A stretch of 64,000 bases of DNA from an uncultured Candidatus Saccharibacteria bacterium (GTDB lineage Bacteria > Patescibacteriota > UBA1384 > JAMDBS01 > CAYSHH01). A program made the position numbers and the translations under genes. Location of the stretch: contig CAYSHH010000001.1 of the NCBI GenBank assembly GCA_964430945.1, positions 6,473 through 70,472 on the forward strand, written 5' to 3'. Shown here piece by piece: positions 5,503-47,880 of this stretch. Numbering within the stretch: the first letter of the stretch is position 1; each line of letters opens with the position of its first letter. The notes under the pieces were generated by a model that saw nothing but the letters and a program-made list of their open reading frames with translations, was not told the DNA's origin and ran no database searches.

Positions 5503-6099
5503 TCATAAAAGAATTTTTAACATTGGGATTAAATAATCCCAATTGTCAAACTTAAATACACAATCTTGCTTCAAATCGTAATTATATCCCCTCAGAAACA
5601 CTATCCTTCTCCATTTGGGAACATATTGACCAATAATATTTCTAGGAACATCATCTATAAGTAAATCACCCTCGAATAATGTCTTGTCGCTCATAAATAA
5701 AATATTATCCATTAGTTCTGGAAAATATTTATTAATCAGATATATTTTATCAGCTACATTTGTCTGTGATCTAGACATTGGATTTGTGACAAAGTATATC
5801 TTGGCACCTAATTTATAAAGGAGTTTTATAGTTTTAACTGCACCAGAAATAGGAGCCATTTCCCTTGCAAATCCATCCGCATAATATATATTGTCCAAAA
5901 TATCCCAAAAATATTTAGGAAAATTCTCCCTCAAAGGAAATTTTTTTATATCATACAACTGCATCCTTTTTAGAATATCAAACGTTTGATAAAAAATATC
6001 AAGCGTCAATCTATCAAAATCAAAAACAGTATTATCAAGATCTATTCCGATAATCATTCCTTTGATCATCGATAAAAAATTCTTATTCATATTACTCAC
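5503..6099 (-). CDS. HAD-superfamily hydrolase, 5'(3')-deoxyribonucleotidase-like
   Basis: 198 aa. N-terminal HAD motif I GIDLDNTVFDFD and a downstream LIDDVPRN motif. Confidence 0.5.
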   Translation of the reverse strand: MSNMNKNFLSMIKGMIIGIDLDNTVFDFDRLTLDIFYQTFDILKRMQLYDIKKFPLRENFPKYFWDILDNIYYADGFAREMAPISGAVKTIKLLYKLGAKIYFVTNPMSRSQTNVADKIYLINKYFPELMDNILFMSDKTLFEGDLLIDDVPRNIIGQYVPKWRRIVFLRGYNYDLKQDCVFKFDNWDYLIPMLKILL

Positions 6100-6813: not shown

Positions 6814-6889
6814 TGGTGGACCCGACAGGACTCGAACCTGCCACCTCCACAGTGCAAATGTGGCGCTCTACCAGATGAGCTACGGGCCC
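6814..6889 (-). tRNA. tRNA-Ala (anticodon UGC), CCA encoded
   Basis: Reverse complement GGGCCCGTAGCTCATCTGGTAGAGCGCCACATTTGCACTGTGGAGGTGGCAGGTTCGAGTCCTGTCGGGTCCACCA. Cloverleaf with G3:U70 Ala identity pair and anticodon loop TT-TGC-AC. Confidence 0.9.
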
Positions 6890-6905
6890 TCGCATAATTA
6901 TTAAC

Positions 6906-6981
6906 TGGTGCGCATGGGAGGAATTGAACCTCCGACCTCGTCATTATCAGTGACGCGCTCTAACCCCTGAGCTACATGCGC
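6906..6981 (-). tRNA. tRNA-Ile (anticodon GAU), CCA encoded
   Basis: Reverse complement GCGCATGTAGCTCAGGGGTTAGAGCGCGTCACTGATAATGACGAGGTCGGAGGTTCAATTCCTCCCATGCGCACCA. Anticodon loop CT-GAT-AA. 16 nt upstream of tRNA-Ala, as in rrn spacers. Confidence 0.9.
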
Positions 6982-7034
6982 AAGAATTCATTTTAGTAAA
7001 ATAATAATAACAGAAGTACCTAAGAGTTTCAAGA

Positions 7035-9602: not shown

Positions 9603-9907
9603 GTAATAAAAATAATAATGAAAGCAATAATAGATAAAATTATTATTATATACCCAGCCATGATAGTAAGTGATCTTATCAAAACCCCCATAAATCTAGA
9701 TATTATATTTATTGCAAACATATTCAATCGTTCCTGAAGTGATGGATTCACTATCTTAGAAATATCTTTTTTCCAAGGCAGAAATAAAGTTCGCATCAAA
9801 AAATCAATAGAAAATTGATGATACAAATACGCAATTGTTTTTTGAAATATAAATATAATTTTTTTTGGCGCCTCAATAAATTGCCAACCAAAATAACTTC
9901 CTATCAT
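9545..9907 (-). CDS. Small polytopic membrane protein, hypothetical
   Basis: 120 aa, 3 predicted TM segments. Overlaps the start of the Clp-like ATPase by about 58 nt. First ORF downstream of the 16S trailer. Confidence 0.4.
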   Translation of the reverse strand: MIGSYFGWQFIEAPKKIIFIFQKTIAYLYHQFSIDFLMRTLFLPWKKDISKIVNPSLQERLNMFAINIISRFMGVLIRSLTIMAGYIIIILSIIAFIIIFITWLSLPFLIIYLIYRGLII

Positions 9908-9996
9908 AGCACTTAGTACACCTCCTTAATTATAATATGTCTACTTAATCATATCAGAACAATAAAAAAAATCCCATACAAGATGAGATTTTTTTA

Positions 9997-10023
9997 TATC
10001 AGTAACTTTGCGGTTGTAAGAAT
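9997..10023 (-). other. 16S rRNA trailer half of leader-trailer processing stem (pairs with 11684..11710)
   Basis: Plus 9997..10023 is the near-perfect reverse complement of plus 11684..11710: 27 bp with 1 G:U and 1 mismatch. The pair brackets the 16S gene like an RNase III processing stem. Confidence 0.6.
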
Positions 10024-10097
10024 GTTCAGAAATAAATTTCTGAAATCGATCTAGTAAGTTTCAAATATAAATATTCAATTCTTACTGATTCCTTTAG

Positions 10098-11596
<1,499 letters not shown>

Positions 11597-35734: not shown

Positions 35735-36961
35735 TTATTTTGCTTCTTCCAACTTCAATTTAACTTCTTTTGTACTACCTTGATGTTGTATTTTAAGATT
35801 AACTTCATCACCGACATTGTAATTTCTTAATATTTTAGTAAGAGAGTTATTTTCATCTATTCTCTGACCGTCAATCTCAAGAATAATATCATTTTCTACG
35901 ATTCCTGCCTTATCAGCTGGAGAACCAAGCACTATTGCAGTAGTATTATTTCCTCTTAGAACCCAAGCGCCATAATTATCATCCAGGTTATTAGCTTCAG
36001 CGATTTCCTTGGTAATAGGAACGTATCTCACGCCAATCATTGGGCGTTTGATCTCACCAGTCTCCTTGATAGAATCAATTGCCTTTTTAACTGAATTTAT
36101 CGGAATCGCGAAACCAATATTTTGTGCCTCACTTGCTACAGCCGTATTGATACCAATCACCTGACCAGCAAGATTCACTAGTGGTCCACCAGAATTACCA
36201 GAATTGATTGCGGCATCGGTTTGAAGCAAACCATCAAGATTTTCGGATACACCCCCACCACTCGCAGTGATCTGACGCTCTTTCGCTGATATCACACCAG
36301 CAGTTACAGAATTAGAAAACTCTCCCAAAGCATTTCCAATGGCTACTACCCATTGCCCGATAGAAACATCATCGGAATCACCCAACTCAACTGTCTGCAA
36401 ACCATTTGCTTCAATTTTAAGTACGGCTAGATCATCAAGTGGATCAGTTGCGACAACCTTAGCATCATATTCTTTACCGTCATACGTATATATTTTATAC
36501 GTGCCATCTTGATTTGATGCCACATGCTTATTGGTCACGATAAGACCATCCGAAGTAATAATAAATCCCGTACCACCACCTTTCTCTTCATACGTTCTAC
36601 CAAAAAGATCTACCACATTTTGAGTAGTTGTAATTGATACAACAGCTGGAGAGACGTGATCAACCGTATCTGTAATAGCAGAAGACTCTTCAAGCTTAAT
36701 TTTTTCCGTCTTTGTAACTGGTATATTAAATTTATTAATACCAATTTTTTCTTGAAGACTTTGATGATCAGATAAATAAAGCAATGACCCCACCGCACCA
36801 ACTACGCCCATTACAAGTGCAACAATTAGAGTTAATATATAAAAACCTACTCCAGGACCACATTTTTTATTACCAGTTGAACTATAGGCATTTTTCTGTT
36901 TCTCGCTTAATTCATGCTCTTTACCGGCTTCATCGGTATAAGTAATTTTGGTTTTTGGCAT
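35735..36961 (-). CDS. htrA: HtrA/DegP-family serine protease with C-terminal PDZ domain
   Basis: Catalytic triad motifs (..TNKHV.., GNSGGPLVN) and PDZ. Start set at the ATG preceded by GGAGG (MPKTK...); ORF track extends to 37018. Confidence 0.85.
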   Translation of the reverse strand: MPKTKITYTDEAGKEHELSEKQKNAYSSTGNKKCGPGVGFYILTLIVALVMGVVGAVGSLLYLSDHQSLQEKIGINKFNIPVTKTEKIKLEESSAITDTVDHVSPAVVSITTTQNVVDLFGRTYEEKGGGTGFIITSDGLIVTNKHVASNQDGTYKIYTYDGKEYDAKVVATDPLDDLAVLKIEANGLQTVELGDSDDVSIGQWVVAIGNALGEFSNSVTAGVISAKERQITASGGGVSENLDGLLQTDAAINSGNSGGPLVNLAGQVIGINTAVASEAQNIGFAIPINSVKKAIDSIKETGEIKRPMIGVRYVPITKEIAEANNLDDNYGAWVLRGNNTTAIVLGSPADKAGIVENDIILEIDGQRIDENNSLTKILRNYNVGDEVNLKIQHQGSTKEVKLKLEEAK

Positions 36962-37041
36962 AATTCCTCCATTTGTAAGCCCGTAAGATAACAGGCAAAT
37001 TCTCCAATACAGCTTCATTAAAAACTGAGAACATTACATTA

Positions 37042-37335
37042 CTATTTTTTTATACAGACCTTATTCTTCAATTCTTCCTCTAATTTCTCTACTCTTTTAG
37101 CAAGTTTTTCTTCGCGTTTCAATATTTTTGTTGCAAACTCATTTATATAATAAGAAACCAAAACCGCCAGAATAGTTATAATAACCGCGTATATAAAAAG
37201 TGATAATACATCATCACCTTTCGAAACATATGTATTTATCAGAGTTTTGATAGCATCATTCCATGCAAGAGCTGCTAAAAGTGCAAAAGCTCCGGTGATA
37301 AGTGCTGCGAATTTTTCTACAAATTTCTTAGTCAT
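37042..37335 (-). CDS. Small membrane protein with C-terminal coiled-coil, hypothetical
   Basis: 97 aa; two hydrophobic helices then REEKLAKRVEKLEEELK. Confidence 0.4.
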   Translation of the reverse strand: MTKKFVEKFAALITGAFALLAALAWNDAIKTLINTYVSKGDDVLSLFIYAVIITILAVLVSYYINEFATKILKREEKLAKRVEKLEEELKNKVCIKK

Positions 37336-37362
37336 TTCCGTTATATTTAATTAATACATTAT

Positions 37363-38820
37363 TTATTTTATTTTCGTACCAATAATCTTGTTAACTATCT
37401 TGGGGTTAGCTTTTCCTTGAGTCTCTTTCATTACTTGTCCAACCAGAAACCCCATTACTCCTATCTGCCCAGATTTAATTTTTGCTACCGCATCAGGATT
37501 TTCTTTTACCACTTTTTCTACAATCTTCTCTATTTCTCCAGTATCAGATACTTGTTCAAGACTTTTTTCTTTTACAATCATATTTGGTGATTTTCCCTTT
37601 TTAACCTCAGGTAAAATATCCTTAGCAATTTTTCCGGAAATCTTACCATCCGATATCAAGATAATTATTTGAGCAAGATCTTTAGGCTTTACTGATAAAT
37701 CAGGAATCTCATTAACCATCCATTTCACAGCATCTTTAACAAATGAACAGTCCAACAATTTAATAATTTCTTCAAAATATTCTACTTTTTGTAAATCGTT
37801 AGCAATATGCTCAGCATTTTCTTTTGAAATTTCATACTTTTTTTGATATCTCTTCACCTTATCCTTAGGTAATTCCGGCAATTGTTTTTCGATTTCCTCA
37901 ATACAAATATCATTCTTATTTTTTAATTCTGTTTGATTACTTCTTACTTGTGTGGGCGGCAAATCTGGCTCAGGAAAATATCTATAATCAGCTGAAGTTT
38001 CCTTAACGCGCATCACATAGGTCTTGCTTCCTTTTTCATCCCAACCACGAGTTTGCTGAGCAATTTTTTCACCAGACTCAATAGTATCGATTTGACGCTT
38101 AATTTCATATTCTATCGCTCTTTCAACAGATTTAAACGAATTTAAATTTTTCACTTCAACTTTAGTTCCAAACTTCTTTTCACCAGCTTTCCTTACTGAA
38201 ATGTTGGCTTCGCACCTCATTTCACCTTTTTCCATATTTGCATCTGATACTTTTAGAGTTCTTAAAATCGTCTGATAATTTTTACAAAATTCTTTGGCTT
38301 CTTGAGCATTTCTAATATCTGGTTCTGTTACAAGTTCCATAAGAGGCGCACCAGCACGATTGAAATCCAAAAGTGAATAATCGACATCCGCTCTGCCTTC
38401 TGGGTGTTTACTTGTTCCCGTATCTTCTTCCAAATGAATTCTAGTGATTCCAATTTTCCTTACTTGATCATTAGGATTTATTTCCAAATACCCATCATAA
38501 ACCAACGGCAGATCATACTGGGATATTTGATATCCTTTTGGAATATCGGGATAAAAGTAGTTTTTTCTATCCCATTTGGTAAATTTATTCACTTTACAAT
38601 TTAATGCCAAACCAGTAAGTATTGTCCATTCGATCGCTTTTTTATTGAGAACGGGCAGTGTCCCAGGCATACCTAAACATACCGGACATACATTTTCATT
38701 TGGCCCAGAGTGAAATGGATCGTTTTTACAACCACAAAACATCTTACTATTTGTTTTAAGTTCTGCGTGTATTTCAAGTCCAATTATTACTTCATATTTT
38801 TTATTTATTACCTTTTCCAT
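37363..38820 (-). CDS. gatB: Asp/Glu-tRNA(Asn/Gln) amidotransferase subunit B
   Basis: 485 aa. N-terminal YEVIIGLEIHAELKT...MFCGC and C-terminal GatB/YqeY domain. Confidence 0.95.
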   Translation of the reverse strand: MEKVINKKYEVIIGLEIHAELKTNSKMFCGCKNDPFHSGPNENVCPVCLGMPGTLPVLNKKAIEWTILTGLALNCKVNKFTKWDRKNYFYPDIPKGYQISQYDLPLVYDGYLEINPNDQVRKIGITRIHLEEDTGTSKHPEGRADVDYSLLDFNRAGAPLMELVTEPDIRNAQEAKEFCKNYQTILRTLKVSDANMEKGEMRCEANISVRKAGEKKFGTKVEVKNLNSFKSVERAIEYEIKRQIDTIESGEKIAQQTRGWDEKGSKTYVMRVKETSADYRYFPEPDLPPTQVRSNQTELKNKNDICIEEIEKQLPELPKDKVKRYQKKYEISKENAEHIANDLQKVEYFEEIIKLLDCSFVKDAVKWMVNEIPDLSVKPKDLAQIIILISDGKISGKIAKDILPEVKKGKSPNMIVKEKSLEQVSDTGEIEKIVEKVVKENPDAVAKIKSGQIGVMGFLVGQVMKETQGKANPKIVNKIIGTKIK

Positions 38821-38859
38821 ATTTAAATTCCTTTGACAAAATATTTTAAAGACATATCG

Positions 38860-39651
38860 TCATTTATCCTTACCGATCATTGATACTAATTCCAAATCTT
38901 CTATATTAAAAACTCCTTTTTGGTTCCATCGATCCGATAACTCCTGACTCACGGGGACATAATCTATATTAAACTCACTATTTTCATACCCATTTTCTTT
39001 AAATAAATAATACACTTTGGCGGCTGATATATAATCTTTTTCTTTTAAAAAAATTTTAAAACAATCTTTTGATTTCTTGAAAACTTTATCCAAATTATCT
39101 TTATCAAGAGTAAAACCTAGTAATGTTATAGCATCAAAAATATGTGACGGATTCTTTGTATTGATTAAATTATCTATAGCCTCGTCATAGCTTATGTTTA
39201 ATTTCTTTTGCAAATATTCATCATCAAATAAATCAGGATTATAATTATTTTTATCTACTAAGTAATTTCTCGTAAGAATATTTCTTGTTCTCAATATATT
39301 TATCATACCATGAATCTTATCAAAAACATTTAATGATTTTTCAGCCTCATTTGTAATTTGTCTACACCTATCATCTATCACTGTTAGATAATCATTATTT
39401 GGTATAGCATAATTAAACTTGGTAGGTTTTTCAATTGATTTAATCGATCTAATCACATCATATGTTCTTAATACCTCCTCATACAACTTATTGTTTTGAT
39501 ATCCATCTAATAAATTATTGATCTGCATTCCGGATTCTAAGTCGCTAGAAATATTATCAATTAACTTATCAAATATTCTTTTGTCATTTAACTTTTCGTG
39601 TTCAATACAAGCTTCTTTTTTACTAAAACGCTTATTCTCTATATTATTCAT
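38860..39651 (-). CDS. Hypothetical protein (island gene 5, most distal from gatA)
   Basis: 263 aa, Asn/Lys/Asp-rich, no assignable domain. Start overlaps the stop of the preceding island gene by 8 nt. Confidence 0.45.
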   Translation of the reverse strand: MNNIENKRFSKKEACIEHEKLNDKRIFDKLIDNISSDLESGMQINNLLDGYQNNKLYEEVLRTYDVIRSIKSIEKPTKFNYAIPNNDYLTVIDDRCRQITNEAEKSLNVFDKIHGMINILRTRNILTRNYLVDKNNYNPDLFDDEYLQKKLNISYDEAIDNLINTKNPSHIFDAITLLGFTLDKDNLDKVFKKSKDCFKIFLKEKDYISAAKVYYLFKENGYENSEFNIDYVPVSQELSDRWNQKGVFNIEDLELVSMIGKDK

Positions 39652-40027
39652 TTAAAGCATTCTTAAGTTTTTCTTTCAAGTCACTCAGGCTATTATACAT
39701 AAAATTAATTTTGGATGTTCCACTCATAGTAGGAGATTCTTTAATCTTTTCATTCTGAAAACTAATTACCCTTTTTTCTTTTGCATAAAAATAACCTGCT
39801 TCTATTCCTACTCCAAAAGCGCATTCCGAGGCTTCACAAACAATCATATCGCACTCATCCATCTTTTTGAAAGCTAATCTCATCATTTCTTTCGCATCGG
39901 GAATATATCCTTCATCGATAAAACTATAACTTGTATTTCCAGATTCTCTTATAGCATCTTTGATAACGTTAACAATTTCTTCGTTACTACCGTCTTTTTT
40001 GAATCTTATACTTATAAATATTTTCAT
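39644..40027 (-). CDS. Nucleoside 2-deoxyribosyltransferase-like / SLOG-like small Rossmannoid protein (island gene 4)
   Basis: 127 aa. MKIFISIRF...CDMIVCEASECAFGVGIEAGYFYAKEKRVISF matches the NDT-family core (D..G...E.G.A...K.V), including the catalytic-type Glu. Confidence 0.5.
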   Translation of the reverse strand: MKIFISIRFKKDGSNEEIVNVIKDAIRESGNTSYSFIDEGYIPDAKEMMRLAFKKMDECDMIVCEASECAFGVGIEAGYFYAKEKRVISFQNEKIKESPTMSGTSKINFMYNSLSDLKEKLKNALNE

Positions 40028-40077
40028 AATTTATTAAATTTATTGTGTTATTGCATAATATTTTACTAACTCAATCA

Positions 40078-41013
40078 CTATTTTCCAAAATCAGGATTAA
40101 CCCCATAATATTTACAGGCCTGTTCATATGTTTTAGGATACTGACTTCTAATTGATATTGGAATATTATTTTTTCTTTCAAAACTAACTACAGCATCGCT
40201 AACCATTGTCCATATCCTATCTCTTTCCGTTTTAGCATATTTAGCAATACTATTCAAAAAATTTTGCCGATATTTTTTCATTCCTCCTCCAACATCCAAA
40301 GCAAAATATCTCGCTAGTTGGAATACATTACCTTCATAATCTGCGGTATCAACCGAGCCTATAAGCTGATTTATACTGTCCTTAATGGAACTATCGTCAA
40401 TAAGTTGAATATCAACATCACGGTATGCATTAAATTCAATATCTGGGAATAACTTTTCAAATTTATTAAATATAAACTTATCTATGATTTTTTTTGCAGC
40501 GATAAATTTCAATTTCTTTAAATTTTCCGAATCATAGCTATTAGGCTTTGTCTTATTTTGCAATGATTTTTGAGCCTGACTCACGCTAAATGAATTATTT
40601 TTTGCCAATATCAATTCTTCTTTAAACTCTTGGGTTAATTTTTTTTCTTTTATAAAACTAAAGCATTTTTTCTTAAACTGACCTTGATTAATATATATCG
40701 TAACATCAATATCAGATAAATTGTGTGTTTTATGATTTAACGCTTTACCTTTGCTCAAAGAACCAAACAAAATCATACCTAAATCAATATTTAAATCTTT
40801 TTTTAGCTCAGTAAACATTTCTTTTAAATTTCTAATTCTTTCTCGGGAATATCTATCTTGAGATATTTCAAATCTCTTATGCTCCGATGAATTATAATCA
40901 ACCTTGCCTCCCATTGGATCATTACCAATACCGATAGATTCCCTTTTTTCGCATTCATTATCAACTTGATATTGTTGACCTATGTTTTCACTGTTTAATG
41001 ATCTTTCATCCAT
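40078..41013 (-). CDS. Pol-beta-superfamily nucleotidyltransferase (island gene 3)
   Basis: 311 aa. Helix followed by GMILFGSLSKGKALNHKTHNLSDIDVTIY, i.e. a GS...D[IV]D nucleotidyltransferase motif; long C-terminal helical region. Confidence 0.55.
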   Translation of the reverse strand: MDERSLNSENIGQQYQVDNECEKRESIGIGNDPMGGKVDYNSSEHKRFEISQDRYSRERIRNLKEMFTELKKDLNIDLGMILFGSLSKGKALNHKTHNLSDIDVTIYINQGQFKKKCFSFIKEKKLTQEFKEELILAKNNSFSVSQAQKSLQNKTKPNSYDSENLKKLKFIAAKKIIDKFIFNKFEKLFPDIEFNAYRDVDIQLIDDSSIKDSINQLIGSVDTADYEGNVFQLARYFALDVGGGMKKYRQNFLNSIAKYAKTERDRIWTMVSDAVVSFERKNNIPISIRSQYPKTYEQACKYYGVNPDFGK

Positions 41014-41023
41014 AATAATTTAA

Positions 41024-41479
41024 TTATAATGCTCCTATATTCTCAAGACCTCTTCTAAATTTATTTAAAGCGTTTTTGCATTCGTTATTTGTCGGCTTGT
41101 GATTTTCTTCATGTGTAATCTGATTTCTCAGTTTATGTGCTTGCCAAATCATCTGATATGTATTTTTATTAAAATGATCTTCCCAATTTCTCAGTCTATG
41201 AGCGAACGTCTCACCTTGGGCACCACCATGACGAAGTTGTGCATCAAAAAACTTGTCAGCTCTCACTACAGCCTGTTCGGCATGTACTTGATCACCAGAA
41301 TCTAAAAGTTTCTCAATCTCAATCCATTTAGCTAAATTTTTAGCTTTATCGTATCTATCTTTTTCCTTTATTCCAAATATTTTTTTAAACGGCCAACTCA
41401 CCAAAAACCACAATCCCTTTCCCAAAGATATAAAAATACTTTCTAAAAAACCTGGTTGACTACGATGATACCTTGACAT
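41024..41479 (-). CDS. HEPN-like protein with N-terminal hydrophobic segment (island gene 2)
   Basis: 151 aa. N-terminal FLESIFISLGKGLWFLVSWPF hydrophobic stretch; C-terminal AHKLRNQITHEENH fits the HEPN Rx4-6H motif (RNxxxH). Confidence 0.4.
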   Translation of the reverse strand: MSRYHRSQPGFLESIFISLGKGLWFLVSWPFKKIFGIKEKDRYDKAKNLAKWIEIEKLLDSGDQVHAEQAVVRADKFFDAQLRHGGAQGETFAHRLRNWEDHFNKNTYQMIWQAHKLRNQITHEENHKPTNNECKNALNKFRRGLENIGAL

Positions 41480-41730
41480 TAATTATTTTTTATTTCATTT
41501 TGATTAATTTTCAATTCATCTTGATTTTCATCAATTGTTGCTCGATTTTCATTTGGTTTTTCTCCAATTTCTTCTTGAACTCTATCTTTTGTTTTTTTTC
41601 GTTCCTCTCTGTTTTGCTTTGCGACTTCTTTTAGTTTATCCCAACTTGCTTTTTCTGGCTTACGATCACTTTGATTTAAATCTTCTAACATTTTTCGAGT
41701 GTCAAATGGTCCCAAAGGTCTTTCTCTCAT
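41479..41730 (-). CDS. Small highly charged (Lys/Glu/Arg-rich) protein (island gene 1)
   Basis: 83 aa, predicted disordered/coiled. Stop overlaps the start of the HEPN-like gene by 1 nt; preceded by AAGGAGAAAAAT-ATG. Confidence 0.4.
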   Translation of the reverse strand: MRERPLGPFDTRKMLEDLNQSDRKPEKASWDKLKEVAKQNREERKKTKDRVQEEIGEKPNENRATIDENQDELKINQNEIKNN

Positions 41731-41744
41731 ATTTTTCTCCTTAT

Positions 41745-41791
41745 AATCACTATATAGAGTGATTTAAGCGACTCCAAAATTTTCTCGGAGT
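41745..41791 (-). promoter_or_regulatory. Two adjacent hairpins in the gatA-island junction
   Basis: AATCACT-atatag-AGTGATT (41745..41764) and ACTCC-aaaattttctc-GGAGT (41771..41791), in the 68-nt gap between the gatA stop and the first island gene. Confidence 0.3.
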
Positions 41792-41798
41792 TTAGCTT

Positions 41799-43259
41799 TC
41801 ATTTAACTAATTTCTCATATTTATCTGCAATACTTAATATCAGCTCCTCCGACCACTGTGGTCCTAAGATTTGCATTCCAACAGGAAGTCCTTCAACTTT
41901 TCCAACTGGAATTGAAACTGCTGGAATTCCTGCAATATTTGCCCCAACCGTGTAGACATCAGCCAGATACATGCTAAGCGGATCTTCTTCACGTTCACCA
42001 ATCTTAAACGGCAATGTTGGAGAAGTTGGAGTAATAATTATATCAACTTCGTGAAATGCTTTTTCAAAATCCTTCATTACCAAAGTTCTCACCTTCATTG
42101 CTTTTTTATAATACGCATCAAGATATCCAGAGCTTAAGACATAAGTTCCGAGCATAATTCTTCTTTTTGCTTCATCGCCAAAACCTTCCGCACGAGATTT
42201 TAAATATAGCTCGGAAAGATCCTTGGCTGATTTACTCTGATGTCCGTATCGAATTCCATCGTATCGAGCTAAGTTTGATGATACTTCAGCTGGCTGGACA
42301 ATATAATAAACCGCAAGTGCATAATCTGTCATTGGTAAACTTATTTGTTTAACTTGTGCACCTTGTCCTTCCAATATTTTTACTGCATTTTTTACTTTTT
42401 CCTCTATCTTAGGATTCAACCCCTTAGCAAAATATTCCTTAGGTAATCCAATCTTTAAATCTTTTAGCTTGTAGTTTGTAGTTTGTAGCTTTTTAGAATT
42501 AAAATCTTTATTCGGTACTGTAGTAGAATCTTTGATATCAACTCCACTTATAATTTCAAGAAGCATTGCTGCATCTTCTGCGCTTTTAGTAATTGGCCCT
42601 GGGACATCCAAACTCGAAGCCATAGCAACAAGTCCGTAACGTGATGCTCTACCATAAGTTGGTTTAAGCCCAACCACATTACAAAATCCAGCTGGCTGGC
42701 GAATAGAACCACCAGTATCAGTTCCAAATGATGCAAAGCCCATACCAGAGGCAACTGCTGCGCAGGATCCACCAGAAGATCCACCTGGAACTCTCTCTAA
42801 ATCGTACGGATTATGTGTTGTGAAAAACTGGGAATTTTCTGTTGAACTTCCATGCGCCCAAGCATCCATATTACATTTACCAACAATTACAGCACCCGCA
42901 TTTTTTAATCTTTCGACGATTGTCGCATCATAAGCTGGCACAAAATCCTCTAACATCTTAGAAGCTGCAGTAGTTCGAATTCCTTTTGTTAAAATATTAT
43001 CTTTCAAAGATATTGGCACACCATCAACTTTCGAAAGTCTCTTTCCTTCGTTGATTCTTTTATCAGCCTCTTTCGCTTGCTCAAGCGCTTCTTTCTCTGA
43101 AATAGTAATAAATGCCTTAATTTGTGGATCTTTCAGCTTAATTTGTTCCAATACTAATTTAGTCAGTTCAACTGAACTAACTTCTTTTTGATCTAAAAGT
43201 TCCGATATCTCCGATATCGATTTTTCTAAAATTTTAAATTTTGATCTGTCATTTTGCAT
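41799..43259 (-). CDS. gatA: Glutamyl-tRNA(Gln) amidotransferase subunit A (amidase signature family)
   Basis: 486 aa. Amidase signature GGSSGGSCAAVASGMGFASFGTDTGGSIRQPA. Confidence 0.95.
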   Translation of the reverse strand: MQNDRSKFKILEKSISEISELLDQKEVSSVELTKLVLEQIKLKDPQIKAFITISEKEALEQAKEADKRINEGKRLSKVDGVPISLKDNILTKGIRTTAASKMLEDFVPAYDATIVERLKNAGAVIVGKCNMDAWAHGSSTENSQFFTTHNPYDLERVPGGSSGGSCAAVASGMGFASFGTDTGGSIRQPAGFCNVVGLKPTYGRASRYGLVAMASSLDVPGPITKSAEDAAMLLEIISGVDIKDSTTVPNKDFNSKKLQTTNYKLKDLKIGLPKEYFAKGLNPKIEEKVKNAVKILEGQGAQVKQISLPMTDYALAVYYIVQPAEVSSNLARYDGIRYGHQSKSAKDLSELYLKSRAEGFGDEAKRRIMLGTYVLSSGYLDAYYKKAMKVRTLVMKDFEKAFHEVDIIITPTSPTLPFKIGEREEDPLSMYLADVYTVGANIAGIPAVSIPVGKVEGLPVGMQILGPQWSEELILSIADKYEKLVK

Positions 43260-43280
43260 TTTGATCTTTGATTTTTTAAT

Positions 43281-43595
43281 TTATGATAGCATTTGTTTCA
43301 CTTTTACATAATCACCTTTTTTCTCTTTTGCATTTGAAAGTAATTCTTTTCTGTTTTTATCAACGTTCTTATCTGCTTTCCAAATATCACTCACTTCATC
43401 TTCTCGATAAATATTTTTAAGTCCTGTAACTTGCGAAGTTTCTTCAATATTTTCAGTTTTAACTTTATTAAGTTTCTCGACATAACCTAAAATACTCGAT
43501 AATTCTTTCGAGTATTTTTCTTTTTCTTTATCAGTAATATTTATACGAGCCAATCTTGATAAATGTTCAATTTCAGCTTTAGTAATATCATTCAT
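43281..43595 (-). CDS. gatC: Asp/Glu-tRNA amidotransferase subunit C
   Basis: 104 aa. N-terminal ITKAEIEHLSRLARINITDKEKEKYSKELSSILGYVEKL, typical GatC. Confidence 0.85.
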   Translation of the reverse strand: MNDITKAEIEHLSRLARINITDKEKEKYSKELSSILGYVEKLNKVKTENIEETSQVTGLKNIYREDEVSDIWKADKNVDKNRKELLSNAKEKKGDYVKVKQMLS

Positions 43596-43607
43596 AATTT
43601 ATCTTGA

Positions 43608-43636
43608 TTATAACAGTTTATTCGACCTGTTGTAAA
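43608..43636 (-). promoter_or_regulatory. sigma70-like promoter (TTTACA-17-TATAAT) for gatC, giving a near-leaderless transcript
   Basis: Minus-strand TTTACAacaggtcgaataaactgTTATAATcaagataaatt-ATG. Only about 12 nt separate the -10 from the start codon; no SD. Confidence 0.4.
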
Positions 43637-43730
43637 ATTTTATTTGTCCACAAAAAATTTCATATTTTTCTGATATCATGTAATTAACAAATGTAAGTTT
43701 TCGTTCGTTTATTTGATAGGAGGGATATCA

Positions 43731-43928
43731 ATGCAAAACAATAGTACTTTTAAAGTACTCCAAAAAGCGATGGACTTATCTCGTCGAAGAAAAGATGATG
43801 GCAAAATTTCCCGATCTAGTCTGAACGATTCTCAGACTCAACCACAACAAAAAACCACGAAACAACCAAGATCATCAAATATTATTATATCGACTTCCGC
43901 CCCGAAAGAACCAATCTGTGTTTTCTAA
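43731..43928 (+). CDS. Small hypothetical protein (65 aa) with SD and own terminator
   Basis: AGGAGGGATATCA-ATG; polar, Lys/Arg/Ser/Gln-rich product; followed by a hairpin and T-run. ORF track starts it 18 nt earlier, at 43713. Confidence 0.35.
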   Translation: MQNNSTFKVLQKAMDLSRRRKDDGKISRSSLNDSQTQPQQKTTKQPRSSNIIISTSAPKEPICVF

Positions 43929-43940
43929 AAACAATACCTA

Positions 43941-43979
43941 CCCAATCACAACAAGCTCTTATGTCTGATTGGGTTTTTT
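43941..43979 (+). terminator. Terminator-like hairpin (CCCAATCA...TGATTGGG + T6)
   Basis: 8-bp stem with 17-nt loop followed by TTTTTT; overlaps the ligA stop region on the other strand. Confidence 0.35.
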
Positions 43980-46020
43980 ATTTTATCATCCCCAAAAATC
44001 CTTTTTCATTAATTATCTCAACATTATTTTTCTTTGCTTTTTCAAACTTACTTCCGGGATTTTCACCACTAATAAGATAATTAGTTTTACTAGTTATAGA
44101 ACTTAAGACTTTGCCACCATACTGGATAATTTTTTTATGAGCATCTTCGCGAGTAAGTGTTGGAAGTGTACCAGTCACAACAAACGATTGTCCTTTGAGT
44201 TTATTGGCACTGACTGGTGAATGATAGTTTTGAACAACAATATCAGCTTTCAATAAATCGTCGACAAATTTTTGATGTCCAATATTTTTAAGCCAATCGC
44301 ATATCTCTTTAGCAGTTTTATCTGCTACTCCATACATGCGTCTAATACTTTCATAATTCGCTTTTCTAAATTTTTCTAAAGTATGGAATTGCTTTGCCAA
44401 ATCTACTGCCATTTCAGCCCCTACACTTCTAATAGAAAGTGCATAAATAAATCTATCAAGTGTAATTTTCTTAGCACTTTGAATAGAGTTATAGGTATTT
44501 TGTGAAGATTTTTCTGCAAATCTTTCTAAAGGTTCTAAATCACCTGGCTCTAGCTTAAATAAATCTACTGCCGATTTAATAAGTCCTGCATCGATAAGTT
44601 GGTCAATGACTTTTGGCCCTAATCCCTCCATATTAAAAGCTGATTTTGAAACAAAATGCACAATTCTTCGCCTCATCTGCGAAGCACAGTTTTTATTTGG
44701 ACATCGTGTAATTGCTTCTCCTTCTGGCCTGACAACCCCTACACCGCAAATTGGACATTTTTTTGGCATATGAAACTCTCGAGCAGTTTTAGGCCTCAAT
44801 CGCTTTAATACCTCAACAACTTCAGGTATAACATCTCCAGCCTTTTGAATAATCACTGTATCACCCACACGCACATCTTTTTTATGAATTTCATCCTCAT
44901 TGTGAAGTGTAGCACGACTTATTGTTGATCCAGCTACAAGTACAGGCTCAAGTATCGCCACAGGGGTTAAAGCTCCTGTCCTACCTACCTGCACCACAAT
45001 ATTATTTATTGTAGTTGTTGCTTGCTCTGCTGCCCATTTGTAAGCAATCTCCCAACGATAAGCTTTGCCAATATATCCAAGTTTTTTCCTCTCTATTAAA
45101 TTATTTACTTTAATAACTACTCCATCAACCTGATACGGTAGCTTTTCTCTTTTCTTTTGCCAAAGCTTATATAATTTTTCTATATCTGTGGTAGTTCTCA
45201 CAATTTGAGCATGGGGATTGATTTTAAATCCTACTTTTTTAGCAATTTCAAAATTTTCTAAATGAGTTTTGGTGCCTATATCCGTATCAATACTATAAAT
45301 ATTAAAATCAAGCTTTCTTAGTGCAGTCACCTTAGGATTTAATTGACGAATAGATCCTGCGGCAATATTTCTTGGATTAGCATATTTAGCCAATCCCTTT
45401 TTTTCCTGTTCTTTGTTTAATCTTTGAAATTCTTTTTTAGAAATATAAACTTCCCCCCGAACTTCAAATATTCCATTTTTAATAATTTCTTCTAATTTTG
45501 AATTTTTAATTATTTTTTTAAGTTTTTCGCTTTGAGTTTTAAGTTCTAATGGAATTGATTCAATTGTCCTAATGTTTTGTGTGACATCCTCTCCGATGAC
45601 TCCATCACCACGTGTAGCAGCTTGTATAAGTACTCCCTTTTCATAAATCAATGAGACTGCCAACCCATCCATTTTAAGCTCTGCAAAATATTCTTTTGGT
45701 TTATGACCCAAAATTTTACTTATCCGAGTTTCCCAATCAATAATTTCTTCGTATGTAAAAGCATCCTCCATGCTCATCATCCGAGTTTTGTGTTTTACCT
45801 TTTTGAATTTATCCAATGCTTTTCCACCCACCCTTTGAGTTGGAGAATCAGATGTAATAAACTCAGGATATTTGTGCTCTAGCTCATAAAGTTTATGCTT
45901 AAGAGAGTCTAAAGCCGCATCGGTTATTTCTTCACGATCAAGTACGTGATACAAATATCGATGATGATTAATCTCTTTTTTTAATGCTTCTATTCTTTTT
46001 TTCACTTCATTTTTATCCAT
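43978..46020 (-). CDS. ligA: NAD-dependent DNA ligase
   Basis: 680 aa. Adenylation motif KMDGLAVSLIYEKG; Cys4 zinc finger (CPICG...CPNKNC); HhH and BRCT regions. Confidence 0.95.
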   Translation of the reverse strand: MDKNEVKKRIEALKKEINHHRYLYHVLDREEITDAALDSLKHKLYELEHKYPEFITSDSPTQRVGGKALDKFKKVKHKTRMMSMEDAFTYEEIIDWETRISKILGHKPKEYFAELKMDGLAVSLIYEKGVLIQAATRGDGVIGEDVTQNIRTIESIPLELKTQSEKLKKIIKNSKLEEIIKNGIFEVRGEVYISKKEFQRLNKEQEKKGLAKYANPRNIAAGSIRQLNPKVTALRKLDFNIYSIDTDIGTKTHLENFEIAKKVGFKINPHAQIVRTTTDIEKLYKLWQKKREKLPYQVDGVVIKVNNLIERKKLGYIGKAYRWEIAYKWAAEQATTTINNIVVQVGRTGALTPVAILEPVLVAGSTISRATLHNEDEIHKKDVRVGDTVIIQKAGDVIPEVVEVLKRLRPKTAREFHMPKKCPICGVGVVRPEGEAITRCPNKNCASQMRRRIVHFVSKSAFNMEGLGPKVIDQLIDAGLIKSAVDLFKLEPGDLEPLERFAEKSSQNTYNSIQSAKKITLDRFIYALSIRSVGAEMAVDLAKQFHTLEKFRKANYESIRRMYGVADKTAKEICDWLKNIGHQKFVDDLLKADIVVQNYHSPVSANKLKGQSFVVTGTLPTLTREDAHKKIIQYGGKVLSSITSKTNYLISGENPGSKFEKAKKNNVEIINEKGFLGMIK

Positions 46021-46096
46021 ACTATTATTTTAAACTTTTATATAAGATTGACAAGTAATACTTATGTATATTTCGAAAAGATCATAATATTTACTT

Positions 46097-46120
46097 AAAA
46101 GCTCCCTTAAGGGAGCTTTT
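46097..46120 (-). terminator. Palindromic terminator hairpin AAAAGCTCCC-TTAA-GGGAGCTTTT
   Basis: Perfect 10-bp stem including flanking A/T runs, between the DUF2207-like gene stop and the ligA start; can act on either strand. Confidence 0.5.
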
Positions 46121-46149
46121 ATCTTTATCCAATTATATGATTTTTGTTT

Positions 46150-47880
46150 TTACCAACTTCCGCCACCACCTCCGCCGAATCCTCCTCCAGAACCACCACC
46201 GGAAAATCCAGATCCTCCGGAACCAGCTGAAGATGGAGCTGATATTAAAGCCGAATTCATGCTTGTTTGCATATCGGACATAGAAGAAGCAAAAACAACA
46301 GGGTAAAATGCACCACGACCTTCATACCAATCAGGTCTATCTATTTGCATTTTCTCAAACTTTTTAGACCATTCTTTTACTATTCCGAATATCATCGCAT
46401 AAGGCAGAAATTTCTCAAATATCTTATTATCTTCATTGAACTTTTGCCTATACCTCTCAGCAGTATACATATAAAGTTTAAATCCCTTAATCTGACGTGT
46501 TATTTCTACCCCCTTGTCAGTTCTTTTGGGCATAAGAAAAGAAAATATAATAATAAGAATTCCCGAACCAACAAAAGCGAACATTATCGGAAAAAATGAG
46601 CCCATGAAAAACACCAAAAATTCTGGCAAAAAAAATCCTAAAATAAGCACTACCACGCCAAACGCTAGATATTTATTTCTTACATTTTCCGGATTCTCTT
46701 CAAAATAACCATCCTTTTTTACAGTATCGTATAAATCTTTTTTAATATCTTTGATATATATATAAAATTTATTTCGCAATTCACTAATTTTTACTAGACT
46801 ATCTTCTTTAAATAGTCCATCCATAATTTTCATCTCATAATTCGCAAGTCCATTCCTTATCTTTTTTGTATCTGTCAGCAGATAATCTTTCCCACTACCA
46901 ATACCTAATATTTTCTTTTCTTCTAATTCTTTAATTTTAATATAACCTCTTACCGCCATATCAATAATCACTGCTGAAATATCATGAGTATCCACCTTTT
47001 CATCGTAAATAGTTCCCATAACTGCTGGGCTAAGTTTCTCTGGTGGAGCAAATTCTGGTACAACAGTTTTCTTCATATCTCTTGGGTCCTTACCTTTTTT
47101 ATAATAATTATTGATAAGTAATATTAGTACCAAAAAAGGCACCAAATAACCCCAGTTATCTTGAAGAAACCATTCGATTTGAGTCCAAACAGAATATTGT
47201 TTTATAACGCCTGGCTTAATTCCACTAACCACCGTAAACCCTTCTCCAGGTGTTAAAACGTCCCTTATACTTAAGTTTACCGAATTGTCCTGAACATCTA
47301 TTTGGCAATTACTTGTATTGGAGCCATAACTTCCTGTAAAACAGTTATTATCAAACATTTCTGCATTTTGAGGCCATGTTATCTTTATGTTTGCTTCTTT
47401 AATATCGACGGGCCAATCGTTTCCAGTCGCATTCCAATAAAACTCGTCGTGATCTGAAAAACTATTTATTACTCTATTTATAAAATATTCAATGGTATAA
47501 TGCTGGCTTCCAGAAATAAGCTTATCGGCATCACCGATTTTCAATTCTAAGTTTCCAGATGAACGCGATTCTTCATAACTCACACTATTTCCATCTTGAT
47601 CGGTAACACTTTTAACATCTATTCTTACGTCATAGTTATTACCATTTCTAGAATATTTATATGGAATATACCTATAAATTCCGTGTTTATTGAGATTATT
47701 GAAATTTACATCAATATCCTCTTTGACAGTTGCAGACCTATCTTCATTGATCACAACATCTGAGTTAAATTTATCAATTTCCCAGCCAGTATCGTTTGTA
47801 TCGTATGCCTGCGAATTACTAAAACCAAAAAATACTGCAAGAAAAGTTGCAACTATAAAAATATATAATATTTTTCTCAT
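46150..47880 (-). CDS. DUF2207-like membrane protein (N-terminal extracytoplasmic domain, TM helices, Gly-rich C-terminal tail)
   Basis: 576 aa. Signal peptide, large N-terminal domain, 3-4 TM, C-terminal SGGSGFSGGGSGGGFGGGGGGSW. Confidence 0.55.
   Translation of the reverse strand: MRKILYIFIVATFLAVFFGFSNSQAYDTNDTGWEIDKFNSDVVINEDRSATVKEDIDVNFNNLNKHGIYRYIPYKYSRNGNNYDVRIDVKSVTDQDGNSVSYEESRSSGNLELKIGDADKLISGSQHYTIEYFINRVINSFSDHDEFYWNATGNDWPVDIKEANIKITWPQNAEMFDNNCFTGSYGSNTSNCQIDVQDNSVNLSIRDVLTPGEGFTVVSGIKPGVIKQYSVWTQIEWFLQDNWGYLVPFLVLILLINNYYKKGKDPRDMKKTVVPEFAPPEKLSPAVMGTIYDEKVDTHDISAVIIDMAVRGYIKIKELEEKKILGIGSGKDYLLTDTKKIRNGLANYEMKIMDGLFKEDSLVKISELRNKFYIYIKDIKKDLYDTVKKDGYFEENPENVRNKYLAFGVVVLILGFFLPEFLVFFMGSFFPIMFAFVGSGILIIIFSFLMPKRTDKGVEITRQIKGFKLYMYTAERYRQKFNEDNKIFEKFLPYAMIFGIVKEWSKKFEKMQIDRPDWYEGRGAFYPVVFASSMSDMQTSMNSALISAPSSAGSGGSGFSGGGSGGGFGGGGGGSW

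What the first reader, a model, noticed from the sequence alone, without database searches (positions are those of the whole stretch)
38860..41798. Five-gene island inserted inside the gatCAB operon: nucleotidyltransferase, NDT/SLOG-like protein, HEPN-like protein and two unknowns
gatC-gatA and gatB are normally contiguous. Here 2.9 kb carrying five tightly packed, overlapping or coupled minus-strand genes separates gatA from gatB. The genes are an 83-aa hypercharged protein; a 151-aa protein with an Rx4H HEPN-type motif (LRNQITHE) and an N-terminal hydrophobic anchor; a 311-aa Pol-beta nucleotidyltransferase (GS...DID); a 127-aa nucleoside-2-deoxyribosyltransferase/SLOG-like Rossmannoid protein (ECAFGVGIEAGYFYAKEKRV); and a 263-aa unknown. 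HEPN plus minimal-NTase pairs are toxin-antitoxin modules. NTase plus SLOG/NDT-like sensor plus nuclease combinations characterise nucleotide-second-messenger conflict systems. This composition and its location inside an essential translation operon do not match a described system I recognise.
Basis: partly seen in the sequence, partly recalled or inferred. Interest (0 to 1): 0.8.

Follow-up and report, generated by a model that had tools for sequence, protein, structure and literature searches.

The report
Conserved HEPN gene, swappable cargo in gatCAB
The five genes between gatA and gatB are real, but they are not one new immune system: one is a predicted RNase gene that this group of tiny bacteria has long kept inside the operon, and the others fill two swappable slots beside it that hold different accessory or defence-type genes in related genomes.

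Summary
Five tightly packed minus-strand ORFs (38860-41730) lie between gatA and gatB. The domain calls hold: a true HEPN fold with an invariant RNxxxH motif, a Pol-beta nucleotidyltransferase (NTase), a DNPH1/NDT-like N-glycosidase, a 263-aa ORFan and a charged 83-aa ORF.

The reading as one inserted second-messenger system is not supported.
- The HEPN gene was not inserted recently. [quoted passage not shown] It is often translationally coupled to gatB and diverges at about the rate of GatB and GatC.
- DNA homology with the closest relative breaks exactly on both sides of the HEPN gene. This defines two variable slots.
- In relatives these slots hold a RhuM-Doc protein (PADLOC candidate PDC-S23), an AAA ATPase (PDC-S01), GNAT, PPIase and unknowns. 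A ninth contig with no gat gene in view carries MazE-PIN upstream of the HEPN gene. Relic gene ends mark cassette insertions.
- Relatives of the NTase and of the NDT-like protein occur alone elsewhere, never together and never with this HEPN family.
- The NTase resembles minimal or aminoglycoside NTases, not CD-NTases.

Best reading: an operon-resident HEPN RNase that anchors a cassette hotspot inside an essential operon. This is moderately interesting, and the role of the HEPN protein is the open question.

The parts
43607..43636 (-). Promoter-like site upstream of gatC (TTTACA, 18 nt spacer, TATAAT, with TG)
   Evidence: This is the best-scoring sigma-70-like match in 36500-46500 (11 of 12 positions). 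No minus-strand terminator-like site lies between gatC and gatB. Co-transcription is inferred, not shown.
43281..43595 (-). gatC
   Evidence: Pfam GatC, E 6.6e-21.
41799..43259 (-). gatA, the conserved upstream anchor of the slot
   Evidence: Pfam Amidase, E 1.7e-152. It is 85% identical to gatA of L088. DNA homology to L088 ends at 41801.
41496..41800 (-). Variable segment 1, between gatA and the HEPN gene
   Evidence: There is no DNA homology to the closest relative L088 here. The equivalent position holds an unrelated 88-aa acidic ORF (L088), GNAT (L091), PPIase (L149), a 234-aa unknown (L006), or a 23S_rRNA_IVP protein plus a PDC-S01 ATPase (L155). It holds nothing in L073 and L151.
41479..41730 (-). 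83-aa charged ORF (chg83), with an AGGAG ribosome-binding site; its stop overlaps the HEPN start
   Evidence: ORF listed. It is 48% charged and was called as a gene in L001. It has no family hit and no relative in any fetched locus. Its GC3 is 0.13, against 0.22-0.25 for its neighbours. Coding status is plausible but unproven.
41024..41479 (-). HEPN-domain protein (hepn151): a hydrophobic N-terminal helix followed by a four-helix HEPN domain with R118-N119-x3-H123. This is the lineage-conserved core of the interval.
38833..41023 (-). Variable segment 2, between the HEPN stop and 12 nt upstream of the gatB start; here it holds three cargo genes
   Evidence: DNA homology to L088 stops at the HEPN stop (41024) and resumes at 38832. 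In L088 and L091 this slot holds a RhuM-Doc gene (PADLOC PDC-S23, E 3e-117). L091 also has an 1118-aa protein here, and L093 a 232-aa unknown. In L006, L073 and L149 the slot is absent and the HEPN gene overlaps the gatB start. In L151 the two genes are 91 nt apart with no gene between them.
40078..41013 (-). Divergent Pol-beta-fold nucleotidyltransferase (nt311); G84-S85, D101 and D103 are invariant, D240 nearly so
39644..40027 (-). DNPH1/Rcl- and NDT-like N-glycosidase-fold protein (ndt127); GVGIE75AG nucleophile motif, S97 and T99 conserved
   Evidence: Pfam Nuc_deoxyrib_tr, E 1.7e-5, below the cut-off. There are 168 representatives at E <= 1e-3. The family profile hits Rcl/DNPH1 at E 2.4e-9, with GVGYELG aligned to GVGIEAG. 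Of 36 family members, 35 hit PF05014.
38860..39651 (-). 263-aa ORFan (u263); its start overlaps the ndt127 stop by 8 nt
   Evidence: The word-seeded search of 5.8 billion proteins found only the protein itself. There is no significant family hit and no viral relative. It has the lowest GC (0.261) of the 50 long ORFs in the window, with normal GC3.
37363..38820 (-). gatB, the conserved downstream anchor
   Evidence: Pfam GatB_N, E 1.8e-119, and GatB_Yqey. It is 76% identical to gatB of L088.
37042..37335 (-). DUF5654 small membrane protein, a conserved follower of gatB in this lineage
   Evidence: Pfam DUF5654, E 1.3e-21. It is syntenic in L008, L088, L091, L093 and L151, and partly in L006.

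Best explanation
The five genes are a composite, not a single system.

1. The 151-aa gene encodes a catalytically intact HEPN RNase-type protein with a hydrophobic N-terminal helix. It is an old, vertically inherited resident of the gatC-gatA-X-gatB operon in one Patescibacteria (CPR) lineage. It is co-transcribed with gatB, and in several relatives translationally coupled to it.

2. The short intervals on either side of this gene act as cassette slots. Recombination between the conserved anchors (gatA, the HEPN gene, gatB) swaps in unrelated accessory genes. These genes are probably expressed by read-through from the gatC promoter and are hard to delete because they sit inside an essential operon.

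3. In this genome the downstream slot holds three unrelated genes: an active-site-intact but otherwise novel Pol-beta NTase, a DNPH1/Rcl-like nucleotide N-glycosidase and an ORFan. The upstream slot holds a small charged ORF.

Shown: the folds and motifs, the conservation, the synteny, the homology breakpoints, the variable cargo and the insertion scars. Inferred: RNase activity, co-transcription, the recombination mechanism, and that the cargo genes act independently of one another.
For: HEPN fold and motif. Weak hits from family members go to four different HEPN Pfam families.

Conserved position: the family lies between gatA and gatB in L006, L073, L088, L091, L093, L149, L151 and L155. The HEPN stop overlaps the gatB start in L006, L073 and L149.

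Vertical inheritance: HEPN identity tracks GatC and GatB across all locus pairs. For example, window against L088 gives 79% for HEPN, 76% for GatB and 73% for GatC; window against L073 gives 33%, 50% and 28%.

Breakpoints: DNA homology with L088 ends at 41801, covers 41495-41024, and resumes at 38832.

Variable cargo in relatives: RhuM-Doc (PDC-S23, E 3e-117), an AAA_14/DUF4143 ATPase (PDC-S01, E 6e-107), MazE-PIN, GNAT, PPIase, PDDEXK_3, a 23S_rRNA_IVP protein and unknowns.

Insertion scars: a 28-codon relic of the HEPN 5' end lies upstream of the PDC-S01 gene in L155. A 26-codon relic of the gatB 3' end lies after an inserted 313-aa gene in L088.

Independence of the cargo: NTase relatives occur alone (cysS-NTase-dus in L002 and L087; other contexts in L004 and L086). 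The 55 loci of NDT-like relatives have no NTase, HEPN, u263 or gat neighbour, and the neighbours read in the 15 closest cases are heterogeneous. u263 is an ORFan.

Expression: there is no minus-strand terminator-like site between gatC and gatB, and a strong promoter-like site lies upstream of gatC. GC3 of the cargo genes equals that of their neighbours, so they are not recent arrivals from a donor of different composition.

Precedent: gatA and gatB are interrupted by variable genes in Caulobacter (PMC4221894) and by bro-1 in Moraxella (cited in PMC8406222).
Against:
- One of them (L153, a 5 kb contig) shows no gat gene in view.
- The NTase, ndt127 and u263 have no close relatives, so their age in this slot and their selection state could not be measured.
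- A NTase sitting 10 nt downstream of a HEPN whose nearest structural neighbours are MNT-associated HEPN toxins could be more than coincidence. So could the fact that the protein modifier RhuM-Doc occupies the same slot in L088 and L091.
- No expression data exist, and no biochemical data exist for any of these proteins.
Confidence: 0.6

Rival explanations
1. HEPN plus a covalent modifier forms a type-VII-like toxin-antitoxin or abortive-infection pair. The hepn151 RNase is held in check by a neighbouring protein-modifying enzyme: the Pol-beta NTase in this genome and the RhuM-Doc protein in close relatives (non-orthologous replacement). Loss or inhibition of the modifier would release RNA cleavage.
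For: The nearest structural neighbours of hepn151 are MNT-associated HEPN proteins and HepT toxins. nt311 starts 10 nt after the HEPN stop. Its best NTase-like structural hits include MNT antitoxins and the AMPylator DrrA, and NCBIfam gives a weak MntA hit (E 0.0055). RhuM-Doc lies next to the HEPN gene in L088, L091 and L093 and diverges in step with it. HEPN with DOC or RhuM neighbourhoods have been described in defence loci (PMC3710099).
Against: The HEPN gene stands alone between gatA and gatB in L073 and L151, and sits with only a PPIase in L149, so it needs no adjacent partner. The tyrosine of the Rx4HxY motif that MntA AMPylates is absent: the sequence is H123-E-E, and never Y in the family. 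The gene order is HEPN then NTase, whereas MNT is almost always 5' of HEPN (PMC3710099). nt311 is 311 aa, not a minimal NTase of about 100-140 aa. Its relatives have no neighbour from this HEPN family.
Confidence: 0.15
2. The genes have housekeeping roles in tRNA and nucleotide metabolism. hepn151 is a tRNA or rRNA processing or quality-control RNase that works with GatCAB. nt311 modifies or repairs tRNA. ndt127 is a dNMP/NMP N-glycosidase in nucleotide salvage, on which these reduced genomes depend.
For: The HEPN gene is conserved, evolves at the rate of GatB and GatC, and is coupled to gatB. NTase relatives are embedded in cysS-NTase-dus with overlapping stops and starts in two genomes, and one lies next to a tRNA_edit/HD gene in a third. 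In L153 the HEPN gene lies two genes upstream of a CCA-adding enzyme. ndt127 retains the DNPH1 nucleophile Glu and the Ser/Thr positions, and its relatives are stand-alone genes in mixed contexts. An NT5C 5'-deoxynucleotidase lies in the same window at 5503-6099.
Against: A profile of the HEPN family found it in only 2 of the 80 GatB loci from species-representative genomes, many of them Patescibacteria, so it is not generally needed for GatCAB. The genes that share its slots in relatives are toxin or defence-candidate types. The tRNA association of the NTase rests on three or four contexts that are not fully independent.
Confidence: 0.2
3. This is the first reader's model: one nucleotide-second-messenger conflict system (CBASS- or SMODS-like), in which the NTase makes a signal, the NDT/SLOG-like protein senses it and the HEPN protein is the nuclease effector.
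For: The N-terminal core of nt311 gives weak hits to CBASS cyclase models (PADLOC E 1.2e-5; NCBIfam 20.8 bits). A few relatives of ndt127 weakly hit TIR_2, SLOG and DUF4062 models. The location is a slot that holds defence-candidate genes in relatives.
Confidence: 0.05

Closest known systems
HEPN-MNT (HepT-MntA) type VII toxin-antitoxin systems, for example Shewanella SO_3166/SO_3165 and Aphanizomenon HEPN/MNT
   Different: Here the HEPN gene is 5' of the NTase. The NTase is 311 aa with a novel helical elaboration. The HxY tyrosine acceptor is missing. The HEPN protein carries an N-terminal hydrophobic helix. The two families do not co-occur elsewhere. The HEPN gene is inherited vertically inside gatCAB rather than being mobile.
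HEPN with DOC or RhuM defence neighbourhoods (Anantharaman et al. 2013, PMC3710099)
   Same: Relatives L088, L091 and L093 pair this HEPN family with a RhuM-Doc fusion protein, a pairing noted in that survey.
   Different: Those neighbourhoods are built on PrrC/RloC-type ABC-HEPN proteins inside restriction-modification loci. Here a minimal HEPN sits in a translation operon with no R-M genes, and the window itself lacks the RhuM-Doc gene.
CBASS and other CD-NTase/SMODS second-messenger systems
   Same: A Pol-beta-superfamily NTase lies near a Rossmannoid protein and a nuclease-type domain.
   Different: There is no CD-NTase fold or profile match. There is no recognised sensor domain such as SAVED, STING or a catalytically dead SLOG. 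The genes are not conserved as an operon.
Interrupted gatCAB operons (genes X, Y and Z in Caulobacter, PMC4221894; the bro-1 insertion in Moraxella catarrhalis, cited in PMC8406222)
   Same: Variable genes are inserted exactly between gatA and gatB.
   Different: Here one interrupting gene (HEPN) is conserved over deep divergence, and the flanks behave as repeatedly reused cassette slots that carry toxin or defence-type cargo.
DNPH1/Rcl 2'-deoxynucleoside 5'-phosphate N-hydrolase and nucleoside 2-deoxyribosyltransferases (PF05014)
   Same: The ndt127 family aligns over the catalytic GxGxExG motif and the downstream Ser/Thr region.
   Different: ndt127 itself scores below the Pfam cut-off (25.4 against 28.8 bits). 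It is shorter (127 aa), and its substrate is unknown.
Defence-island or variable-gene hotspots flanked by conserved core genes (general concept, from my own knowledge)
   Same: The anchors are conserved, the cargo is unrelated between relatives, and defence-candidate genes (PDC-S23, PDC-S01) lie in the slots. A MazE-PIN pair lies upstream of the HEPN gene on a contig (L153) where no gat gene is in view.
   Different: The hotspot lies inside an essential, co-directional translation operon of a very small genome. No integrase or repeats were found. A conserved HEPN gene sits in the middle of it.

Membership tests
HEPN superfamily | Four-helix up-down bundle, with an insert between helices 2 and 3 | tested here: met
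HEPN superfamily | Rx4-6H motif at the end of helix 3, with a polar residue after the R | tested here: met
   R118-N119-Q-I-T-H123 lies at the end of helix 105-123. R118, N119 and H123 are invariant in 18 and in 22 sequences. The position agrees with PMC3710099.
HEPN superfamily | RNase activity | not testable with these tools
   Inferred only from the intact motif.
Type VII HEPN-MNT toxin-antitoxin | Tyrosine acceptor in the Rx4HxY motif | tested here: not met
   H123 is followed by E-E in the window. Position +2 is E, D, Q, N, S or A in the family, never Y.
Type VII HEPN-MNT toxin-antitoxin | A minimal NTase (about 100-140 aa) encoded 5' of the HEPN gene and strictly co-occurring with it | tested here: not met
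   The NTase is 311 aa and lies 3' of the HEPN gene. The HEPN family occurs without any NTase of this family in all the relatives' loci that were read. The NTase family occurs without this HEPN family.
CBASS / CD-NTase systems | A cGAS/DncV-like CD-NTase (SMODS) enzyme | tested here: not met
CBASS / CD-NTase systems | Conserved cyclase-effector operon | tested here: not met
   The three families do not co-occur in any other locus examined.
Pol-beta nucleotidyltransferase superfamily | hG[GS] motif plus a [DE]x[DE] carboxylate pair on adjacent strands, and a third carboxylate | tested here: met
   G84-S85, D101 and D103 are invariant. D240 is nearly invariant and is a candidate third carboxylate. 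NTP_transf_2 scores 23.8 bits against a cut-off of 21. Strands 78-83 and 103-109 flank the motifs.
NDT/DNPH1 (PF05014) superfamily | Profile match with the catalytic Glu nucleophile conserved | tested here: met
   The family profile matches Rcl/DNPH1 at E 2.4e-9, with E75 aligned to the Glu of GVGYELG. The identity of that Glu as the nucleophile comes from my own knowledge of DNPH1. Of 36 relatives, 35 hit PF05014. ndt127 alone is below the cut-off (25.4 against 28.8 bits).
Variable-cargo (defence-type) hotspot between core genes | Conserved flanks, unrelated cargo in related genomes, and presence of known or candidate defence or TA genes | tested here: met
   The breakpoints come and the cargo list. 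PDC-S23 matches at E 3e-117 and PDC-S01 at E 6e-107. MazE-PIN is in L153, where no gat gene is in view. Enrichment over the genome background was not tested.
Discrete mobile element (integrative island or transposon) | Integrase or transposase gene and flanking repeats | tested here: not met
   No such gene lies in 38860-41798. Only short AT-rich chance repeats were found. There are no phage or viral relatives.

The most novel reading that the evidence does not exclude
The hepn151 family is a dedicated fourth component of the gatCAB operon in a CPR lineage. It would be an RNase that is physically or functionally tied to the tRNA-dependent amidotransferase, for example by cleaving tRNA(Gln) or tRNA(Asn) or their mischarged forms, or by shutting down translation on infection. 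Its flanks would be the lineage's main defence-gene hotspot, which would make the NTase-NDT-ORFan cassette of this genome a previously unseen defence module by position.
Probability: 0.15. Interest if true: 0.75.

Novelty: new variant of a known kind. Interest (0 to 1): 0.45.

Why it matters
CPR/Patescibacteria genomes are tiny, and recognised defence systems are seldom reported in them (my own knowledge). Evidence that toxin or defence-type cassettes are parked inside an essential translation operon, around a conserved HEPN RNase gene, suggests how such genomes keep and express accessory genes without promoters of their own. It also gives a concrete place to look for new systems.

The HEPN family has no Pfam model and is conserved next to gatB. 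The NTase family has no structural match and recurs beside tRNA-enzyme genes. Both are defined targets for biochemistry.

The result also removes a false lead. The five genes should not be catalogued as a new CBASS-like system.

Tried and rejected
- Reading the five genes as one conserved system. Rejected because tblastn and HMM searches of all 150+ fetched loci found only the HEPN family recurring, and always without the other four.
- CD-NTase identity of nt311. Rejected.
- A profile of the NTase family against PDB sequences. It gave only a non-significant aminoglycoside NTase hit (E 2.3).
- A mobile element with repeats. Nothing was found.
- Phage origin. There are no viral-contig relatives of ndt127 or u263 and no phage-record matches for nt311, ndt127 or hepn151.
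- Recent foreign origin judged from composition. GC3 of the cargo equals that of the neighbours.
- Relic gene fragments inside the window's island, like those in L155 and L088. None was found.
- A leftover RhuM-Doc gene elsewhere in the window. None was found.
- Homology between chg83 and the 88-aa ORF at the same position in L088. None was found.
- Homology among the unknown cargo proteins of different loci. None was found apart from the RhuM-Doc orthologues.
- The N-terminal helix of hepn151 as a firm transmembrane anchor. The maximum Kyte-Doolittle value over 19 residues is 1.31, which is borderline, so I leave it as a hydrophobic helix that may associate with the membrane.

Full report
**1. 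Observation.** The ORF list and the sequence confirm five co-directional minus-strand ORFs between gatA (41799-43259) and gatB (37363-38820). They are chg83 (41479-41730), hepn151 (41024-41479), nt311 (40078-41013), ndt127 (39644-40027) and u263 (38860-39651). Gaps between them are at most 50 nt, apart from 68 nt between gatA and chg83. There are two overlaps: TAATG between chg83 and hepn151, and 8 nt between ndt127 and u263. Pfam confirms GatC, GatA (Amidase) and GatB. A separate Logan assembly (L001) is 100% identical over 7335 bp spanning gatA to htrA, so the arrangement is unlikely to be a binning artefact. A strong promoter-like site lies upstream of gatC, and no minus-strand terminator-like site lies between gatC and gatB. 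This fits read-through transcription, which is inferred rather than shown.

**2. What each protein is.**

*ndt127.* Alone it falls below the Pfam cut-off for Nuc_deoxyrib_tr. However, 168 cluster representatives match it at E <= 1e-3. A profile of 36 of them hits Rcl/DNPH1 at E 2.4e-9, with GVGIE75AG aligned to GVGYELG, and 35 of the 36 hit PF05014. It looks like an enzyme of the DNPH1/NDT type rather than a degenerate sensor.

*u263 and chg83.* u263 has no detectable relative among 5.8 billion proteins in the word-seeded search and no family hit. chg83 is 48% charged, has a good AGGAG ribosome-binding site and is unique.

**3. Context in relatives, which is the decisive evidence.**

I fetched 80 GatB loci from species-representative genomes and searched them with the window's proteins. 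hepn151 relatives turned up between gatA and gatB in L006 and L073, with the HEPN stop overlapping the gatB start. Looking up further HEPN relatives gave these arrangements:

| Locus | Gene order |
|---|---|
| L088 | gatA, 88-aa ORF, HEPN, RhuM-Doc, gatB, 313-aa gene |
| L091 | gatA, GNAT, HEPN, RhuM-Doc, 1118-aa protein, gatB |
| L093 | RhuM-Doc, HEPN, 232-aa unknown, gatB |
| L149 | gatA, PPIase, HEPN, gatB |
| L151 | gatA, HEPN, gatB |
| L155 | gatA, 23S_rRNA_IVP protein, HEPN 5' relic, AAA_14/DUF4143 ATPase, HEPN, PDDEXK_3 |
| L153 | MazE, PIN, transglutaminase-like, HEPN, 335-aa unknown, CCA-adding enzyme; no gat gene on this 5 kb contig |

HEPN identity between loci tracks that of GatC and GatB. 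This is what vertical inheritance under purifying selection predicts. A profile of the family finds it in only 2 of the 80 GatB loci, so it is specific to one lineage. That lineage shares the synteny ligA-gatC-gatA-...-gatB-DUF5654-htrA-prfA-rpmE-rpsB-tsf.

At the DNA level, homology with the closest relative L088 ends at the gatA stop (41801). It covers only the HEPN gene (41495-41024) and resumes 12 nt before the gatB start (38832). So there are two variable segments, 41496-41800 and 38833-41023, on either side of a conserved gene.

Two scars show that cassettes enter by recombination at gene ends. L155 carries a 28-codon relic of the HEPN 5' end. L088 carries a 26-codon relic of the gatB 3' end downstream of an inserted 313-aa gene.

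The cargo in relatives is largely of toxin or defence type. RhuM-Doc matches PADLOC PDC-S23 full length (E 3e-117), and the ATPase matches PDC-S01 (E 6e-107). L153 adds a MazE-PIN pair. The PDC entries are candidate systems only; that is my own knowledge of what the PADLOC label means.

**4. Do the window's cargo genes form a system?**

NTase relatives lie in other contexts with none of the other four genes. They sit between cysS and dus, with overlapping stops and starts, in L002 and L087. One lies next to a tRNA_edit/HD gene in L004, and one sits among unrelated genes in L086.

A metagenome scan gave 55 loci with ndt127 relatives. None contains a relative of the NTase family, the HEPN family, u263 or the gat genes. 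The neighbours read in the 15 closest cases are heterogeneous. There are no phage or viral relatives, no integrase and no flanking repeats. GC3 matches that of the neighbouring genes. The three genes therefore look like an idiosyncratic filling of the slot.

**5. Mechanism.**

Best supported (confidence 0.6): an operon-resident HEPN RNase gene anchors a cassette-exchange hotspot inside gatCAB, and the cargo genes here act independently of one another. I infer that the cargo is expressed by read-through, and that its position inside an essential operon shields it from deletion.

What hepn151 itself does is unresolved. Its solo occurrence between gatA and gatB (L073, L151) argues against a classical toxin that needs an adjacent antitoxin.

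Rivals:
- A type-VII-like HEPN-plus-modifier pair, with the NTase here and RhuM-Doc in relatives (0.15).
- Housekeeping roles in tRNA and nucleotide metabolism (0.2). This overlaps with the main reading as far as the HEPN gene is concerned.

**6. Comparison with known systems.**

hepn151 passes the HEPN superfamily tests. The pair fails the HEPN-MNT tests: there is no HxY tyrosine, the gene order is reversed, the NTase is 311 aa, and the two families do not co-occur. It also fails the CBASS tests.

Interruption of gatA-gatB by variable genes has precedents in Caulobacter (PMC4221894) and Moraxella (cited in PMC8406222). HEPN with DOC or RhuM neighbourhoods are described in PMC3710099. Full-text searches found no paper linking HEPN with gatCAB, and the two papers that mention both HEPN and Patescibacteria are about archaeal defence systems.

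**7. Verdict.**

This is a new variant of known kinds: a new HEPN family with an unusual conserved operon context, a structurally novel NTase family, and a hotspot inside an essential operon. Interest is 0.45. The most novel reading that the evidence does not exclude is that HEPN is a functional partner of GatCAB and the cassette is a new defence module; I put that at about 0.15.

Noticed in passing
L155:1309-1392 (relic) and L155:2759-3214 (full gene): A 28-codon copy of the HEPN N-terminus lies upstream of an inserted AAA_14/DUF4143 (PADLOC PDC-S01) gene, and the full-length HEPN gene follows it. By eye the relic differs from the resident copy at 6 of 28 residues. This looks like a scar of cassette exchange that used the HEPN 5' end as the recombination anchor.
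   Followed up: partly
L088:12264-12341 (same in L090:7336-7413): A relic of the last 26 codons of gatB (LVGQVMRESKGKANPGVVNQIIGNKL) lies downstream of a 313-aa weakly mTERF-like gene inserted just after the intact gatB. This is a second insertion scar in the same operon.
   Followed up: partly
L002:8070-11172 and L087:5672-8791: Relatives of nt311 are embedded in a cysS-NTase-dus arrangement with overlapping stops and starts in two CPR genomes. Another relative (L004:10001-10732) follows a tRNA_edit/HD gene. This hints that the new NTase family acts on tRNA.
   Followed up: partly
window 6814-11595: The 16S rRNA gene (10098-11595, minus strand) is separated from tRNA-Ile and tRNA-Ala (6814-6981) by a ClpB/ClpC-like AAA+ gene (7035-9602) and a 120-aa ORF. 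Rfam's gathering-threshold scan of the 64-kb window found no 23S rRNA gene. The rRNA operon is therefore unlinked or interrupted.
   Followed up: partly
L153:60-4960: This 5 kb contig carries MazE, a PIN protein, a transglutaminase-like protein, HEPN (74% identical to hepn151), a 335-aa unknown (weak tRNA_NucTran2_2 hit) and a CCA-adding enzyme. No gat gene is in view. It is either an exception to the gatA-HEPN-gatB rule or a very large cargo load.
   Followed up: no
L093:1944-2642: The 232-aa cargo protein between HEPN and gatB contains an HFHP...S..D stretch that recalls a JAMM/MPN metalloprotease motif, but it has no Pfam or PADLOC hit.
   Followed up: no
window 37042-37335 and syntenic genes in L008, L088, L091, L093, L151: A small DUF5654 membrane protein consistently follows gatB and precedes htrA in this lineage. 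In L151 its start overlaps the gatB stop. Its function is unknown.
   Followed up: no
window 5503-6099: An NT5C-type 5'-deoxynucleotidase is encoded in the same window. Together with the DNPH1-like ndt127, it suggests an active deoxynucleotide salvage or catabolism repertoire.
   Followed up: no
L094:1163-2003: The closest metagenomic relative of ndt127 (48% identical) lies directly downstream of a second small protein, read by eye as NDT-like (motif FAWELGCAYG). This may be a tandem paralogue pair. No such pairing exists in the window.
   Followed up: no
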